Shown: in pieces, positions 26,128 through 32,560 of the stretch
Layout: the number at the start of each line of letters is the position of its first letter
How positions within the stretch are numbered: position 1 is the stretch's first letter
From: Methanoregula sp.
GTDB lineage: Archaea > Halobacteriota > Methanomicrobia > Methanomicrobiales > Methanospirillaceae
Assembly: GCF_041663825.1 (NCBI RefSeq)
Contig: NZ_JBAYLY010000010.1
Location: 14,697-78,696 of the forward strand
Reading direction: 5' to 3'
DNA length: 64,000 bases
Notes under the pieces: generated by a model
The model's input: the letters and a program-made list of their open reading frames with translations, nothing else
What the model was told of the DNA's origin: nothing
Databases searched by the model: none
Made by a program: the position numbers and the translations under genes

Positions 26128-27432
26128 ATGTTTGTTATGGATATGCTCATCCGCAGGTGCTCCTCTTCTGTTCCCGAAAACGTCGCTGTTGCGGCACGGG
26201 CTGAGGACATGGACGCGGAACAGATGGCCCGGCTCGTGGCTGCCGGGCGGATCGTGATCCCGGCAAACCCGCACCGGCCGCACCGGCTCTGTGCAATCGG
26301 CGAAGGGTGTACGGTCAAGGTGAACGTGAACGTCGGGACATCGGGCACCCGGTGCGATTACGCTCTTGAGGAGAAGAAGGCACAGGCAGCGCTTGACAAC
26401 GGGGCCGACGCGATCATGGACCTCTCGACCGGCGGGGATCTTGTCGCAATACGGAAGAAGATGCTCGCCCTCGACACCACGGTCGGGACGGTGCCGATAT
26501 ACGAGGCGGTGCGCCGAGCGGGAAATGCAGCGGACGTGGACGCCGACCTGCTCTTCAAGGTCATCCGGGAGCACTGCGAGCAGGGCGTGGATTTCTTAAC
26601 GCTCCACTGCGGGGTGAACCGGCAGGTGCTCGATGCCTTAAAACTTGACCCGCGCCTGATGGGTGTCGTGAGCCGGGGCGGGACGTTCCACTGCGCGATG
26701 ATGATGCTCCGGGAGGAGGAGAACCCGCTCTTTTCAGAGTTTGATTACCTCCTCGATATCCTCGCGGAATACGACGTCACGATCAGCCTCGGGGACGGGA
26801 TGCGGCCCGGCTGCCAGCAGGACGCAGGCAAACTTGCAAAGTCGGTGGAGTACGTGACGCTCGGGACGCTCGCGAAGCGCTCCCTTGCCCGGGGCGTCCA
26901 GCGGATGATCGAGGGCCCGGGGCACATGCCGCTTGACCAGGTGGGCTACAATGTGCGGATGATAAAGGAGATCACCGACAACGCCCCGCTCTACCTGCTC
27001 GGGCCGATCGTGACCGATATTGCGCCGGGCTACGACCACGTGGTCGCGGCTATCGGGGGAGCGGAGGCCTGCCGGAACGGGGCCGACTTCCTCTGCATGG
27101 TCTCGCCAAGTGAGCACCTTGCCCTGCCGGACGTTGAGGATATTATTGCCGGGACCCGGGTCGCAAAGATCGCGGCACACGTGGGGGACACGGTGCGCCG
27201 GCCCGAGGGATACAAGATGGAGCGCGAGGTAAAGATGGCCGAGGCCCGGCACCTGCTTGACTGGGATGCCCAGTTTAAGCTGGCGCTCTACGGCGACCAT
27301 GCAAAAGCGATCCACTGCCGGGACGGGGACACTGATACCTGCTCGATGTGCGGGGATTTGTGTGCGGTGAAGATGGTGAATGAGCTGTTCGGGACCGGGA
27401 AGAAGAAAGGGAAGAGCGCGAAAGGGAAATAA
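26128..27432 (+). CDS. thiC: Phosphomethylpyrimidine synthase ThiC
   Basis: VNVNVGTS, DAIMDLSTGG, FLTLHCG, SRGG, EGPGHMPL and a C-terminal CSMCGDLC cluster. First plausible ATG is at 26128. Confidence 0.92.
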   Translation: MFVMDMLIRRCSSSVPENVAVAARAEDMDAEQMARLVAAGRIVIPANPHRPHRLCAIGEGCTVKVNVNVGTSGTRCDYALEEKKAQAALDNGADAIMDLSTGGDLVAIRKKMLALDTTVGTVPIYEAVRRAGNAADVDADLLFKVIREHCEQGVDFLTLHCGVNRQVLDALKLDPRLMGVVSRGGTFHCAMMMLREEENPLFSEFDYLLDILAEYDVTISLGDGMRPGCQQDAGKLAKSVEYVTLGTLAKRSLARGVQRMIEGPGHMPLDQVGYNVRMIKEITDNAPLYLLGPIVTDIAPGYDHVVAAIGGAEACRNGADFLCMVSPSEHLALPDVEDIIAGTRVAKIAAHVGDTVRRPEGYKMEREVKMAEARHLLDWDAQFKLALYGDHAKAIHCRDGDTDTCSMCGDLCAVKMVNELFGTGKKKGKSAKGK

Positions 27433-27480: not shown

Positions 27481-28386
27481 ATGCCAATTGACCCTGCAAC
27501 CGCAGCAACATTTGGAACATTCTCCAATCTTTCTTTTCAATTTGGGAAAAAAAATATGTCAGAAGTTCTGACATCAATGAAAGATTCCTGGTTGTTATGG
27601 AATCTTAGAAGACATATTAAAAATCGAAAACCGGACAATATAATTTATGACGACATATACGCCATAAGAAAATGTTTAATTGATGGAATTAGAAATCCTG
27701 ATAGTTCTCGTATGAGATTTCTCACATTTAACTTATTGAATAAATCCGGGAACTTAAGTGAAATATCTCGCTTGGGAATCTCTCTAATGATTGAAGATAT
27801 TATTGAAAACTATTCAAATCAGCCTTTTGTTATTGAGGATAGTTTATTCATAATAGAAACTTCTTTTTGCACTTTCTTAACAGAATGGGAGCAAAAATAT
27901 CATCCACAAATCAATGGGAACGACTTTTTCATTCCAAATCCCTCTAAAAAAAACGAAGCTGAATTTTTTTTAGATCACACATTTCAGGGTACTTCGAACA
28001 GTGCACATATTCTCTATGATATTTGTTTAAAATTGGGATGCAAATCTAATGAAAATTTAATTCGAGTGGCGAATCATTTACATTTTAGAGCAGCTGCTGA
28101 CAATTCTTTTCTGTATTCGAATCCGTTTTACAGTCGTATGTTCCTAATCGTAACAATTCAGATCGCCGCAAAGGCTCGTAATTTAAATCTGCATCCTACT
28201 ATGGAAAAAATGATTGAAGTAATAAATTTTGCAAATCAAGAAGTTATCAAAGATGCTTTCCAATGGGCCCAAAATAAAAAAGATAATAACTTCGCTCAAA
28301 TGGGTAATATGACCCTCTTTCTTGCAACAAAAGATGAGATTCATTCTTTTGAGGAATATTACTTTAATCTCTATCAGTTGAACTAA
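27481..28386 (+). CDS. Orphan AT-rich ORF, unknown function
   Basis: 301 aa uninterrupted ORF in a roughly one-third G+C patch. No family recognised. Confidence 0.6.
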   Translation: MPIDPATAATFGTFSNLSFQFGKKNMSEVLTSMKDSWLLWNLRRHIKNRKPDNIIYDDIYAIRKCLIDGIRNPDSSRMRFLTFNLLNKSGNLSEISRLGISLMIEDIIENYSNQPFVIEDSLFIIETSFCTFLTEWEQKYHPQINGNDFFIPNPSKKNEAEFFLDHTFQGTSNSAHILYDICLKLGCKSNENLIRVANHLHFRAAADNSFLYSNPFYSRMFLIVTIQIAAKARNLNLHPTMEKMIEVINFANQEVIKDAFQWAQNKKDNNFAQMGNMTLFLATKDEIHSFEEYYFNLYQLN

Positions 28387-28491
28387 TCCTTTTTTGGCTC
28401 TGTAGATGTCATCAAAAACTTCTCGTAACTTTGCTATGGATAAGTTACCGTGGGTCTTATCCATGGGTCCCAGGTGCTCAACGATCTAAAT

Positions 28492-28820
28492 GAGGGAGGG
28501 GGTACCCCCACCTACCCGGACACAAGGGTGGGGGGGTGACCCCCTTCTAAAAAAAGAGAGTGTGGGGGGTAGGGGGATCACCCCCCTCCCCCTATGGCCG
28601 CGAACCGGCTCCTTTTCTGCATGGCCAAATCCTGTGTTTCGCGTGGAATCACCGGCGTGAAGTGTGGTTTCTGGTGGTTTTCCGGAATTGTGGTGGAAGG
28701 GCCCGGCCGGGACCAGGGGGAGGGGGGTACACCCCTGTTGGGCCGGCACATGGGTGGGGGGGTGATCCCCTCCTAGAAAAAAGAAGGAGGGGGGTAGGGG
28801 GATCACCCCCCTCCCCCCCA
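28492..28820 (+). repeat. Composite G-tract/palindrome element, copy 2
   Basis: Same unit-core-unit architecture and module order as 6929-7253, with the G-rich strand again on +. Confidence 0.8.
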
Positions 28821-28915
28821 CGGCGAATTGCCGGGCCGGGTGGAATGTTCACTGACACTACTGCGGATATTCCCATAACGCTGATATATCCCGGGAGTAA
28901 ACAAAACCTGTATCC

Positions 28916-29119
28916 ATGGAAAGAAAAGAAAAATCCGTGCTCGCAGCCAAAGCGATATTCCTTGTCGGCGGGATCGTTTTTGTTTCCGGTGCAGCACTCT
29001 CAATTTTTGCAAACAGTCCCTTTGGCATCCCGCTCTGCGGTATCGGCGCAGTCCTGATGGCGGCCGGGTTTATCCTGATCAGGCGACCGGAATATATCTT
29101 CCTGCTTCTTGGGCTGTAA
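28916..29119 (+). CDS. Small two-TM membrane protein (hypothetical)
   Basis: 67 aa with two hydrophobic helices (AIFLVGGIVFVSGAAL, LCGIGAVLMAAGFILI). No other support. Confidence 0.35.
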   Translation: MERKEKSVLAAKAIFLVGGIVFVSGAALSIFANSPFGIPLCGIGAVLMAAGFILIRRPEYIFLLLGL

Positions 29120-29165
29120 AGATCCCGGCGAACATTTTCGCCCGCGGATAAATTATCTGTTTTTC

Positions 29166-29245
29166 TTCTGTCCGGTCACATATGGGCGATCTCTCCTGCC
29201 GCGACCGGCATGGTCAGGGAGAAGGGGACCTATTTAGGGCTCATC
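29166..29245 (-). pseudogene. Remnant of a LEA14-like gene 3' end (left copy of an imperfect direct repeat)
   Basis: About 84% identical (manual alignment, including a perfect 17-mer ATATGGGCGATCTCTCC) to 32136-32216 inside the LEA14-like gene. The minus strand reads VPFSLTMPVAAGEIAHM* against VPFTRTVPVTVGEIAHMVTG in the intact gene. Confidence 0.6.
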
Positions 29246-29281
29246 CGGAATGTTATTTTGGCAGTCCTGTCTATGGTCTGG

Positions 29282-30541
29282 TTATTGTTCAAGCCCGTCC
29301 CGCTCCAGCCATTTCCAGAGCGGCTCGTAGATAATCGTGCCTTTATTGCCAAACCACTCCTCCACAGTTTCCCGTTCTTCGTTTTCGGTCAGGATGCGGA
29401 GCTTGGTACAATGAAGCTCGTGTCCGGCCTTGAGAAGTGCCCGGATTTCCCGCTCTCTTGTGGCAGGAGTGGAGAGATGCGCACAGACCTGGATCAGCTC
29501 CGTGATCCGGTTCTTTTTCCGGATCACAAAATCCACTTCTTCCTGCTGCACATTTTTCCACGTGGAACAGGTCAGGATGCCGTTCATCTCGTGCCGTTTC
29601 AAGGTGATCGCGACGAGGTTTTCATAGAGCCGCCCTTTGTTCTCGGAAAATTGTGCGGCTTTTGCCTGTACAAACCCGTTGTCAATACAGTAGATCTTCC
29701 GGTTCGCGGTGATCTGCTCTTTTACCTTAAACGAGAACCTCGGGATGGAGAAGAAGAGGAATGTCTGTTCCAGGTAATCCAGATATTTTTTGACCGTATG
29801 AACGCTCCGGCTGCCGGTAACCTTTGCAAGCGTCGAGTAGGAATATTCACAGGCAATATTCGAGATAAGATACATTGCCAGATCTTCGATAGCGGGTATC
29901 GAACGGATGCGGTACCGTTTCACGATATCTTTGTACACGATGGCATCAAAAAGGGTGGACAGGTATTCATTTCCGTCTATCTCTTTCAGGATTACCTCCG
30001 GGAATCCGCCGTTTTTTGCGTACCGGGCAAGTATTGCCTGCTTTTCCGCGGAAGTTACTGGTTTTTCCCGGGTGCGCAGAACCTCCCGGTAGGAGAAAGG
30101 AAAGATGGTTGTCTGGAGGTATCTTCCGGTAAGGTGCGTGGCAAGTTCGGAGCTGAGAAGCTGGGAGTTGCTGCCGGTGAGAAGCAGGCGATAGCCTTCC
30201 CGCTGGAGCCGGTTGACAAAAAGTTCCCAGTTTGGCAGGTTCTGGATCTCATCGAGGAAAAGGATTTTCGGGGAGTCAAACACTTCGTTTACTGCCGCGA
30301 TGACCTCGTCGCCTTCCCTTGTTACGAGCCGCTCATCGTCAAAGTTTACATAACCGAATTTTCCCTCAGGGGGCATCTGGTGCATGGCAAAAAATGATTT
30401 TCCCGCTCTTCTTGGTCCTGAGATCACCCGTATCAGGTTGCCCGTTTTTCCACCGGCCGCTGCATCCCGTTCTATATACCTCTCCTTGAGCCTGTTCTCG
30501 ATCTCGCGCCGCTGCGTGATCAGTGCGTCGCTTACCTCCAT
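29282..30541 (-). CDS. AAA+ ATPase with DUF4143 C-terminal domain (AAA_14 family)
   Basis: 419 aa. Walker A GPRRAGKS and Walker B ILFLDEIQNLPNWE, with a C-terminal DUF4143-like region. Confidence 0.82.
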   Translation of the reverse strand: MEVSDALITQRREIENRLKERYIERDAAAGGKTGNLIRVISGPRRAGKSFFAMHQMPPEGKFGYVNFDDERLVTREGDEVIAAVNEVFDSPKILFLDEIQNLPNWELFVNRLQREGYRLLLTGSNSQLLSSELATHLTGRYLQTTIFPFSYREVLRTREKPVTSAEKQAILARYAKNGGFPEVILKEIDGNEYLSTLFDAIVYKDIVKRYRIRSIPAIEDLAMYLISNIACEYSYSTLAKVTGSRSVHTVKKYLDYLEQTFLFFSIPRFSFKVKEQITANRKIYCIDNGFVQAKAAQFSENKGRLYENLVAITLKRHEMNGILTCSTWKNVQQEEVDFVIRKKNRITELIQVCAHLSTPATREREIRALLKAGHELHCTKLRILTENEERETVEEWFGNKGTIIYEPLWKWLERDGLEQ

Positions 30542-30656
30542 ACGCTCACCATTGATCCATCATAGTGCACGAAAATAGATAAAATCGTGCATTATGATGT
30601 AACCAATACATGAAAAAACAAGGACCGTACTGATGGGACCCGGCGCTTGTCACGGA

Positions 30657-31349
30657 TCAGATCTCATCTTCCGGTGGAATAACCGCGTACAGGATCGGTA
30701 TAATCATGGGGACAACATCCCATGCTATTTCCCTGATTAGTTCCCTGTCGGGCCTGCAAAAGTCTGCTTCAAATGTATCGTATGTTTCCATGAGGCGATC
30801 CCAAGGGATATCCGGGTATTTTTGGCGGGTCGGGGCATCGACTCTGTGAGCGGAGACGGCCAGCCACCGGCAGTTATAGGATATTGCGTGGAAGAGCATC
30901 TCATCCCTGTCGGGAATTTCGGCAGACGGGTTCCCGGTGATCTTTTGGATGTTTCGTGCAGAGATGAGCATATCGAGAAGGTAGGACATCTGGCGGAGGA
31001 CGGGGGGTTTCCCGGAGAGCATTCCCTTCCTTCGGATATAGTTCTCGCTCTGCTCCACCGATTTGCGATCCGCGAGATCGATTTTACGGGAGAAGAGTGC
31101 TTCGAGTTCTTCCTGCATGGCGCTCATGTCCGGCAATGAGGTCTTGTCATCCGGAAAAAATTCGATCATCACATCGATATCACTGTCGGGCCGGAAATCG
31201 TCCCGCATGATGGAGCCGTAAAAACAAAAACTGCGGATATTCCACTTTTTACAGAATGCCCGAATGGTTTCTTCGGGTATGGCCATATGCCGGTTTGCGA
31301 TACGGAGTTCGGGCTCGTTTGTGTCGCATTCAGATTTTTCACTCATCAT
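30657..31349 (-). CDS. Fused nucleotidyltransferase (MntA-like) + DUF86/HEPN (HepT-like) protein
   Basis: The N-terminal half has FYGSIMRDDFRPDSDIDVMIEF (GS..x..DxD NTase motif). The C-terminal half is colinear with DUF86 (YPDIPWDRL...IAWDVV), but the expected RNxxxH is replaced by ETYDTFE. The start ATGATGA overlaps the upstream stop. Confidence 0.65.
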   Translation of the reverse strand: MMSEKSECDTNEPELRIANRHMAIPEETIRAFCKKWNIRSFCFYGSIMRDDFRPDSDIDVMIEFFPDDKTSLPDMSAMQEELEALFSRKIDLADRKSVEQSENYIRRKGMLSGKPPVLRQMSYLLDMLISARNIQKITGNPSAEIPDRDEMLFHAISYNCRWLAVSAHRVDAPTRQKYPDIPWDRLMETYDTFEADFCRPDRELIREIAWDVVPMIIPILYAVIPPEDEI

Positions 31350-31738
31350 CTGATCTGTTCTGCTGCCCAGCGGGTGACGGCCTGTGCATGCACAACAGCC
31401 GTGTCGTACTCTTTCTCTGTTACCGGCAGTTCGAAGCCCGGGTACCGCGTATCTGATGCATATGAGGTCAGGGTAACCGCGCCCCACAGATCTTCGGGAA
31501 TGGTAAGGCCGTGCTGTCCGAGCGCGGAGAGGAGGGCGTTGATATCGTGAGTGTACGGATATGGGATCTTCCGGGCGACAAACACGGCTTTGAGCGCTTT
31601 TTCAGCGGCCTGTTGTGCCTGGTAGCAGAGGTCTTCATAGAGCACCCCCGGGGTTTTTGCACCGGCAAGCATAAGGGAACTCTCTGCCCGGCGGAGCCAT
31701 TCGTCCGGGTTATCGGGCGAGCGCTTTTTTCCTTTCAT
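31346..31738 (-). CDS. HEPN-domain protein (PF05168-like)
   Basis: DEWLRRAESSLMLA...QAAEKALKAVF...YTHDINALL is the classical archaeal HEPN pattern. The start is ATG 31738 or 31753, and the gene overlaps the upstream MNT gene. Confidence 0.78.
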   Translation of the reverse strand: MKGKKRSPDNPDEWLRRAESSLMLAGAKTPGVLYEDLCYQAQQAAEKALKAVFVARKIPYPYTHDINALLSALGQHGLTIPEDLWGAVTLTSYASDTRYPGFELPVTEKEYDTAVVHAQAVTRWAAEQIR

Positions 31739-32060
31739 ACACCACCCTGCCATCTTTGAGTGCCGGGTGTACCACGCTGAAGGGGGAGTTCCGGTATTTC
31801 TCAACCTGTTGAGGTGTGACCACGACCAGATCGATTGCCCGTGCGATGCCCCGCATCCGCAGGTAGATCTCTCCTGCAACGGTTCTCGGGTTATACCTGC
31901 CTGCCTTTACCACGAGGAAATCGAGATCGCTTTCCGGGCCTGCCGTGCCGCGTGCAGCGGAGCCGAAGAGGAGAACCTGTTCGGGGCTGGCGGCCTCTAC
32001 TATACGGCAGATGATCTCGTCGAGCTCGGTGTTCTGCCGGGGCGGTACTGGGGGGGTCAT
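31710..32060 (-). CDS. Minimal nucleotidyltransferase (MNT) partner of the HEPN protein
   Basis: 116 aa. LLFGSAARGTAGPESDLDFLVV is the GS-x9-DxD NTase motif. Confidence 0.85.
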   Translation of the reverse strand: MTPPVPPRQNTELDEIICRIVEAASPEQVLLFGSAARGTAGPESDLDFLVVKAGRYNPRTVAGEIYLRMRGIARAIDLVVVTPQQVEKYRNSPFSVVHPALKDGRVVYERKKALAR

Positions 32061-32116
32061 CTCTTCCTTAGTGTGGATGGGCGGGAGGAATAATCAACGT
32101 TTGGCCGGGACCCGTT

Positions 32117-32560
32117 TTACGGGTAGTCCTGCTTTTTCTGCCCGGTCACCATATGGGCGATCTCTCCCACGGTTACCGGCACGGTCCGGGTGAAGGGGAC
32201 CTGTTTTGGGATCATCAAAAATTTTAGTTTGGCGGTCCCCTCGATTGTCAGCTCCAGTTTCCCTCCCGCCACAAATGCGGCGAGTGCCCCCAGGAGCGCG
32301 GCGTTGTGGGATGTGACCGGTACCGGAAGCACGGTCGCTGCATTCGCGGGGATCTTTGCGCTGCCGGTATCGCCGGTCGCAATCACCAGTGGCGTCCCGG
32401 CATTCCTGTACGAAACGGTAAACGGGCACGATTCCAGTGTCGCCCCCACGGGGTTCGGGTTTTCCACCCGGATCGAAACATCGAGATCGAGCGTGGAAAA
32501 TGAGAGGTTCTTCAGTGCGACCCCCTCAAGGGTCACGACGGGATCTGAGAGGACAGACAT
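32117..32560 (-). CDS. LEA14-like / WHy-domain (late embryogenesis abundant type 2) protein
   Basis: 147 aa from ATG 32560. LDLDVSIRVENPNPVGATL... and GKLELTIEGTAKLKF fit the LEA_2 beta-sandwich pattern. Its 3' end (32136-32216) is the right copy of the direct repeat. Confidence 0.68.
   Translation of the reverse strand: MSVLSDPVVTLEGVALKNLSFSTLDLDVSIRVENPNPVGATLESCPFTVSYRNAGTPLVIATGDTGSAKIPANAATVLPVPVTSHNAALLGALAAFVAGGKLELTIEGTAKLKFLMIPKQVPFTRTVPVTVGEIAHMVTGQKKQDYP

What the first reader, a model, noticed from the sequence alone, without database searches (positions are those of the whole stretch)
29166..32216. 2.9-kb ATPase + MNT/HEPN cassette bracketed by an ~80-bp imperfect direct repeat from the LEA14-like gene 3' end
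29166-29245 and 32136-32216 align at about 84% identity, including a perfect 17-mer ATATGGGCGATCTCTCC. The right copy is the last ~27 codons of the intact LEA14-like gene. The left copy is a decayed fragment (VPFSLTMPVAAGEIAHM*). Between them lie a DUF4143 AAA+ ATPase, a fused MNT-HEPN gene, a HEPN gene and an MNT gene, all on the minus strand. This looks like integration into, or recombination at, a gene 3' end with duplication of the target, as for integrative elements. No integrase remains. The alternative is that the left copy is the relic of a second LEA14-like paralog disrupted by the cassette.
Basis: seen in the sequence. Interest (0 to 1): 0.65.

Follow-up and report, generated by a model that had tools for sequence, protein, structure and literature searches.

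The report
Old insertion scar beside ATPase gene
A 123-base imperfect repeat of the end of a stress-protein gene marks where a small ATPase gene, now accompanied by toxin-antitoxin-type genes, was inserted long ago in a Methanoregula genome; the same kind of scar surrounds related ATPase genes in other microbes, which hints that this very common 'defence candidate' gene may move without any known recombinase.

Summary
The repeat is real and longer than reported. Window 29157-29279 and 32129-32250 align at 78% over 124 columns (score 113; shuffles 18±2). The right copy is the working 3' end of a LEA_2 gene. The left copy is a decayed orphan that starts right after the stop codon of a DUF4143 AAA+ ATPase (PADLOC PDC-S01).

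The locus is a hypervariable slot between the convergent LEA_2 and ThiC genes of Methanoregula. Some relatives have an empty site.

The same ATPase-stop/LEA_2-fragment junction occurs in several other assemblies from two clades. The event is therefore old, not a fresh integration. The perfect 17-mer is probably a lineage-specific gene-conversion patch, not an att core. The MNT+HEPN pair joins LEA_2 exactly at its stop codon and is a separate block.

No integrase was seen in the gene calls or ORFs examined. No locus has two full LEA_2 genes.

These repeats mostly copy a neighbour gene's 3' end.

Best reading: a recombinase-free insertion-duplication scar tied to the ATPase unit. The mechanism is inferred. 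That the ATPase moves itself is an open, novel possibility.

The parts
32129..32250 (-). Right repeat copy: the functional last ~41 codons of the LEA_2 gene
   Evidence: It is 92.7% identical to the orthologous stretch of L001.
29157..29279 (-). Left repeat copy: orphan LEA_2 3' fragment. It is a pseudogene with one stop and one 1-nt deletion, and it begins 2 nt after the ATPase stop.
   Evidence: The same junction is present in L033, L049, L040/79, L050 and L041. It is 76% identical to the right copy and 74-79% to orthologues of other species.
29179..29196 (.). Perfect 18-mer shared with 32150-32167. Probably a short gene-conversion patch, shared with L049 and absent from L033's fragment.
32117..32560 (-). 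LEA_2 (LEA14-like / WHy) gene of 147 aa. The last two codons plus stop (YP*) come from the adjoining MNT block; relatives are 145 aa.
   Evidence: Pfam; homologues; junction
31710..32060 (-). MNT-type nucleotidyltransferase (116 aa), first gene of the MNT+HEPN pair
   Evidence: Pfam NTP_transf_2/Polbeta; weak MntA_antitoxin match, 33 bits against a cut-off of 60; PDC-S09. Absent from L033 through a 754-nt deletion. Present in L046.
31346..31741 (-). HEPN-domain protein (131 aa), putative toxin partner of the MNT
   Evidence: Pfam HEPN E=3e-23. L033 keeps only its last ~11 codons.
30657..31349 (-). Fused nucleotidyltransferase + DUF86/HepT-like protein (230 aa)
   Evidence: Pfam. 27-29% identical to the separate MNT and DUF86 genes of L016. 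Precedes the ATPase in L033, L036, L040, L041, L050 and L079.
30558..30621 (-). Promoter/operator of the ATPase. An imperfect palindrome ATAATGCACGA-N12-TCGTGCACTAT surrounds a TATA-like TTTATCTATTTT, with a third half-site further upstream. This is the left end of the conserved ATPase unit.
   Evidence: Orphan copies occur in L009, L016, L041 and L046.
29282..30541 (-). AAA_14 + DUF4143 ATPase (419 aa; PADLOC PDC-S01). Homology to other loci stops at its stop codon.
28916..29119 (+). Small predicted membrane protein (67 aa), between the orphan fragment and the GC-rich repeats. Shared with L033 and L049.
28490..28840 (.). GC-rich hairpin repeats. In L001, L009, L015 and L040 these follow the LEA_2 end, or its fragment, directly. 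They mark the old downstream flank.
26128..27432 (+). ThiC, the convergent gene that closes the variable slot. Homology to relatives resumes at 27377.

Best explanation
The two copies are the scar of an old insertion at the 3' end of the LEA_2 gene. The site is the short gap between the convergent LEA_2 and ThiC genes of Methanoregula.

Shown:
- The right copy is the working gene end.
- The left copy is a displaced duplicate that starts immediately after the stop codon of a DUF4143 AAA+ ATPase.
- That junction is shared by several other assemblies from two clades, so the event happened in an ancestor or spread between lineages with the ATPase.
- In this lineage the orphan copy is decaying (one stop, one frameshift).
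- The slot is a hot spot with many different fillings.

Inferred:
- The duplication belongs to the ATPase unit: about 80 nt of palindromic promoter/operator plus the ORF, ending at the stop codon.
- The fused MNT-DUF86 gene and the MNT+HEPN pair are passengers that lodged between the gene end and the ATPase promoter.
- The perfect 17-mer comes from a short gene-conversion patch copied from the working gene.
- The insertion needed no integrase. It was an insertion-duplication, made either by the ATPase unit itself or by host homologous recombination of a circularised piece carrying a copy of the gene end.
- Recombination between the two copies can delete the block again and leave one intact LEA_2. 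This would explain the patchy distribution.

The cassette genes probably act as a defence/addiction island: an MNT/HEPN type VII toxin-antitoxin-like pair and a PDC-S01 candidate. That function was not tested.
For: - Repeat significance and anatomy.
- Slot and empty sites: the distance from the LEA_2 stop to the ThiC stop is tens of nt in L012-L014 and 257 nt in L009. Other fillings occur in L001, L002-8, L015 and L016.
- Same module in the same slot: L033-35 and L036-39, and L040-L050, L054 and L079.
- Shared junction: all fragments share the signature 'DR' where real genes have EG/TG/DG.
- The fragment is not a recent copy of the resident gene. It is 76% identical to the right copy and 74-79% to other species' genes, while the right copy is 92.7% identical to L001.
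- Concerted evolution or conversion: in L040 the distal 88 nt are 98% identical to its own gene and the proximal 31 nt only 48%. The CCCATAT patch is shared by the window and L049 but not by L033.
- Passenger status of the MNT+HEPN pair: L033 shows a deletion that leaves a HEPN 3' relic. The block boundary lies at the LEA_2 stop codon. L046 has a permuted order.
- ThiC 3' fragments play the same role in L043, L044/45, L047, L046 and L016.
- No integrase appears in the gene calls of L031, L033 or L036.
- Generality (an exploratory test designed after the pattern was seen): direct repeats flank ATPase homologues in 15 of 43 dereplicated loci against 2 of 100 shifted controls. Inverted repeats are not enriched, 1 of 43 against 1 of 100.
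- In 11 of 16 repeat-positive loci, one copy is the 3' end of an intact neighbour, including MetRS, a sigma-54 regulator, a 2-oxoacid dehydrogenase E2, HIT and an epimerase.
- A 1.33-kb unit that is 94-97% identical sits in unrelated flanks.
- Synonymous divergence of the module is about half that of the flanks: ATPase dS 0.13 against 0.21-0.56 for L033, and 0.37-0.45 against 0.55-1.1 for clade B.
Against: - In every locus with a LEA_2-derived repeat, the fused MNT-DUF86 gene lies between the gene end and the ATPase promoter. It is therefore not shown that the ATPase unit alone was what inserted.
- About two thirds of ATPase loci show no detectable flanking repeat. This includes L089 and L098, which carry the same 1.33-kb unit as L093, and three genome loci of more distant paralogues.
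- The shifted controls are mostly core genes in the same contigs, not other accessory genes.
- The 80 loci were found with this ATPase as query, so the sample is one subfamily.
- No joined (excised) form was seen in the metagenome that holds this strain. Only assembled contigs could be laid, and these hide rare forms.
- The nuclease-like domain lacks the canonical (D/E)-x-K; it has Q351-V-C353.
- The lower dS could reflect constraint or base composition rather than transfer.
Confidence: 0.62

Rival explanations
1. Campbell-type spread by host homologous recombination only. Recombination between the two repeat copies releases a circle holding the module plus one copy of the LEA_2 end. After transfer to a related cell, the circle re-enters by a single crossover in that cell's LEA_2 end and regenerates the flanking repeats. 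The ATPase has no role in mobility.
For: - The proximal ~30 nt of the fragment travel with the ATPase. The distal part resembles the local lineage's LEA_2: 98% in L040, and L049's fragment is 92% identical to the L002-type gene end.
- Module dS is about half that of the flanks.
- The module is always in the same slot in Methanoregula.
Against: - It does not explain how the first duplication arose.
- It does not explain near-perfect repeats made from different housekeeping genes around ATPase homologues in unrelated loci (L060 39 nt 97%, L093 about 110 nt).
- It does not explain the 94-97% identical unit in unrelated flanks.
- No circle or joined form was seen.
Confidence: 0.22
2. Classical integrative element. 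A tyrosine or serine recombinase integrated a circular element carrying a copy of the LEA_2 3' end (attP). The repeats are attL and attR, and the integrase gene was later lost.
For: The topology (intact gene, insert, displaced 3' fragment) is the one such elements leave.
Against: - No integrase appears in the gene calls of any module-bearing locus that has them.
- The 17-mer 'core' is absent from L033's copy.
- The junction is tied to the ATPase stop codon.
- The same pattern recurs with other target genes and repeat lengths of 24-223 nt, and no recombinase was seen in the ORFs I examined there.
Confidence: 0.05
3. Relic of a second LEA_2 paralogue. An ancestral tandem pair LEA_2a-LEA_2b existed, and the module replaced the 5' two thirds of LEA_2b.
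For: The fragment is as far from the resident gene as from other species' genes. An old paralogue would look like this.
Against: - No locus among the roughly 30 Methanoregula-type loci has two full copies.
- The fragment always begins exactly at the ATPase stop.
- ThiC, and unrelated genes elsewhere, show the same partial 3' duplications. This would need a tandem paralogue each time.
Confidence: 0.07
4. Chance similarity or an assembly artefact.
For: None beyond the modest 78% identity.
Against: - The alignment score lies about 40 sd above shuffles.
- The identical structure appears in independent assemblies: L031 at 100%, L032 at 99.95%, and L033, L034 and L035 from three different samples.
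Confidence: 0.01

Closest known systems
Integrative elements and genomic islands that target the 3' end of tRNA or protein genes (tyrosine-recombinase att sites)
   Same: An intact target gene, an insert, and a displaced copy of the gene's 3' end as direct repeats. The element can be lost again by recombination between the repeats.
   Different: - No integrase in the gene calls or ORFs examined at any locus.
- Repeat length varies from 24 to about 300 nt between loci.
- The repeat is made from whichever gene is next door.
- The unit is one 1.3-kb gene.
- The exact 17-mer here is not conserved in the sister lineage.
Free-standing homing endonuclease genes (for example the seg/mob genes of T4-like phages)
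   Same: A compact promoter-plus-ORF unit wedged between conserved genes. It is found in the same slot in related genomes and is less diverged than its flanks.
   Different: Homing leaves no target duplication. This protein is an AAA+ ATPase with a non-canonical PD-(D/E)XK-like domain. No cleavage activity is known.
Insertion-duplication (Campbell) integration of circular DNA by homologous recombination
   Same: It gives exactly this topology and needs no dedicated recombinase. The hybrid make-up of the orphan copies fits it.
   Different: As far as I know it is established mainly for laboratory constructs and plasmids (own knowledge, not checked here). It needs the incoming DNA to carry a piece of the target already, so it cannot explain first insertions at new sites.
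PADLOC candidate defence gene PDC-S01 (AAA_14 + DUF4143; COG1373)
   Same: The ATPase matches the PDC-S01 models (E=5.6e-103) and both Pfam domains. The family is described as an ATPase fused to a PD-(D/E)XK domain. It is said to be the fourth commonest 'defence' in prokaryotes, was found because it is embedded in other operons, and is experimentally untested (PMC12988326; bioRxiv 10.1101/2024.01.29.577857; PMC3424549).
   Different: The papers I could search do not mention flanking target duplications or mobility of the gene itself.
HEPN/MNT type VII toxin-antitoxin pairs (HepT/MntA)
   Same: The adjacent, overlapping MNT (31710-32060) and HEPN (31346-31741) genes, and a fused MNT-DUF86-like gene, have these domains.
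   Different: Scores are below NCBIfam's MntA cut-off (33-36 bits against 60). Catalytic motifs were not checked, and no function was tested.
AAA+ transposition helpers (MuB, IstB, TnsC) and the PD-(D/E)XK nuclease TnsA of Tn7
   Same: The Foldseek hits to the ATPase model include MuB filaments, DnaA, RuvB and ORC/Cdc6. The C-terminal domain has the alpha-beta-beta-beta-alpha-beta layout of PD-(D/E)XK nucleases.
   Different: There is no DDE transposase, no terminal inverted repeats, and no short fixed-length target duplication.

Membership tests
Recombinase-borne integrative element (attL/attR) | Integrase (tyrosine or serine recombinase) gene inside or next to the element | tested here: not met
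   The gene calls with Pfam for L031 (= window 19282-40541), L033 and L036 show none. The unknown ORFs 27481-28386 and 28916-29119 have no Pfam, NCBIfam or PADLOC hit.
Recombinase-borne integrative element (attL/attR) | Identical core sequence at both ends, conserved among related insertions | tested here: not met
   The 18-mer is present in the window and in L049. L033's fragment has GCCGGGAGGGTG at that place.
Recombinase-borne integrative element (attL/attR) | Target gene stays intact and a displaced 3' fragment lies on the far side | tested here: met
Transposon with target-site duplication | Short duplication of fixed length and terminal inverted repeats | tested here: not met
   Repeat lengths are 24-223 nt (about 300 nt for L043 by tblastn). 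Flanking inverted repeats are not enriched, 1 of 43 against 1 of 100.
PDC-S01 / DUF4143 ATPase family | AAA_14 and DUF4143 domains above Pfam's cut-offs; match to the PADLOC model | tested here: met
   AAA_14 107.8 bits (cut-off 27); DUF4143 84.8 bits (cut-off 28.1). PDLC04787 E=5.6e-103.
PDC-S01 / DUF4143 ATPase family | Walker A and Walker B motifs | tested here: met
   GPRRAGKS (residues 42-49) and DE (97-98) are invariant in 34 homologues.
PD-(D/E)XK nuclease superfamily (C-terminal domain) | Catalytic E ... D ... (D/E)-x-K | tested here: inconclusive
   The layout is alpha-beta-beta-beta-alpha-beta. E307, E335 and D337 are invariant, but strand 3 carries Q351-V-C353, conserved in at least 90% of sequences. 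The residue mapping rests on secondary structure, not on a structural superposition.
PDC-S01 as an anti-virus defence gene | Protection against virus infection | not testable with these tools
   The literature says it is untested (PMC12988326).
HEPN/MNT type VII toxin-antitoxin | Adjacent MNT and HEPN genes | tested here: met
   NTP_transf_2 E=6.5e-10 and HEPN E=3.4e-23. The two genes overlap by 32 nt.
HEPN/MNT type VII toxin-antitoxin | Equivalog-level match to MntA; R-x4-6-H RNase motif in the HEPN protein | tested here: not met
   MntA_antitoxin scores 33-36 bits against a cut-off of 60, so that part is not met. The RNase motif was not examined.
LEA_2 (LEA14-like / WHy) protein | LEA_2 domain above the cut-off; orthologues in relatives | tested here: met
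   51.9 bits (cut-off 25.4). There are 92 homologues, mostly 145-aa Methanoregula proteins.

The most novel reading that the evidence does not exclude
The DUF4143/PDC-S01 ATPase gene, with its ~80-nt palindromic operator, is an autonomous single-gene mobile element. It would be a new class with no integrase or DDE transposase. It would insert beside the 3' ends of genes and make long target duplications of variable length (tens to hundreds of nt). Its great abundance, and its habit of being 'embedded' in other operons, would then reflect selfish mobility at least as much as defence. The LEA_2 repeat in this window would be one old example.
Probability: 0.3. Interest if true: 0.85.

Novelty: new variant of a known kind. 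Interest (0 to 1): 0.62.

Why it matters
PDC-S01 is reported as the fourth most common candidate defence gene in prokaryotes. It was nominated only because it is found embedded in other gene clusters (PMC12988326; bioRxiv 10.1101/2024.01.29.577857).

If the flanking duplications seen here are insertion scars of the gene itself, two things follow. First, 'embedding' may be a sign of mobility rather than of defence, and counts of defence systems would need a caveat. Second, there would be a recombinase-free way of inserting genes next to gene 3' ends that keeps the target gene intact. This could be tested directly with a marked 1.3-kb unit.

For this genome alone, the result is a well-resolved history of a small variable island between two housekeeping genes.

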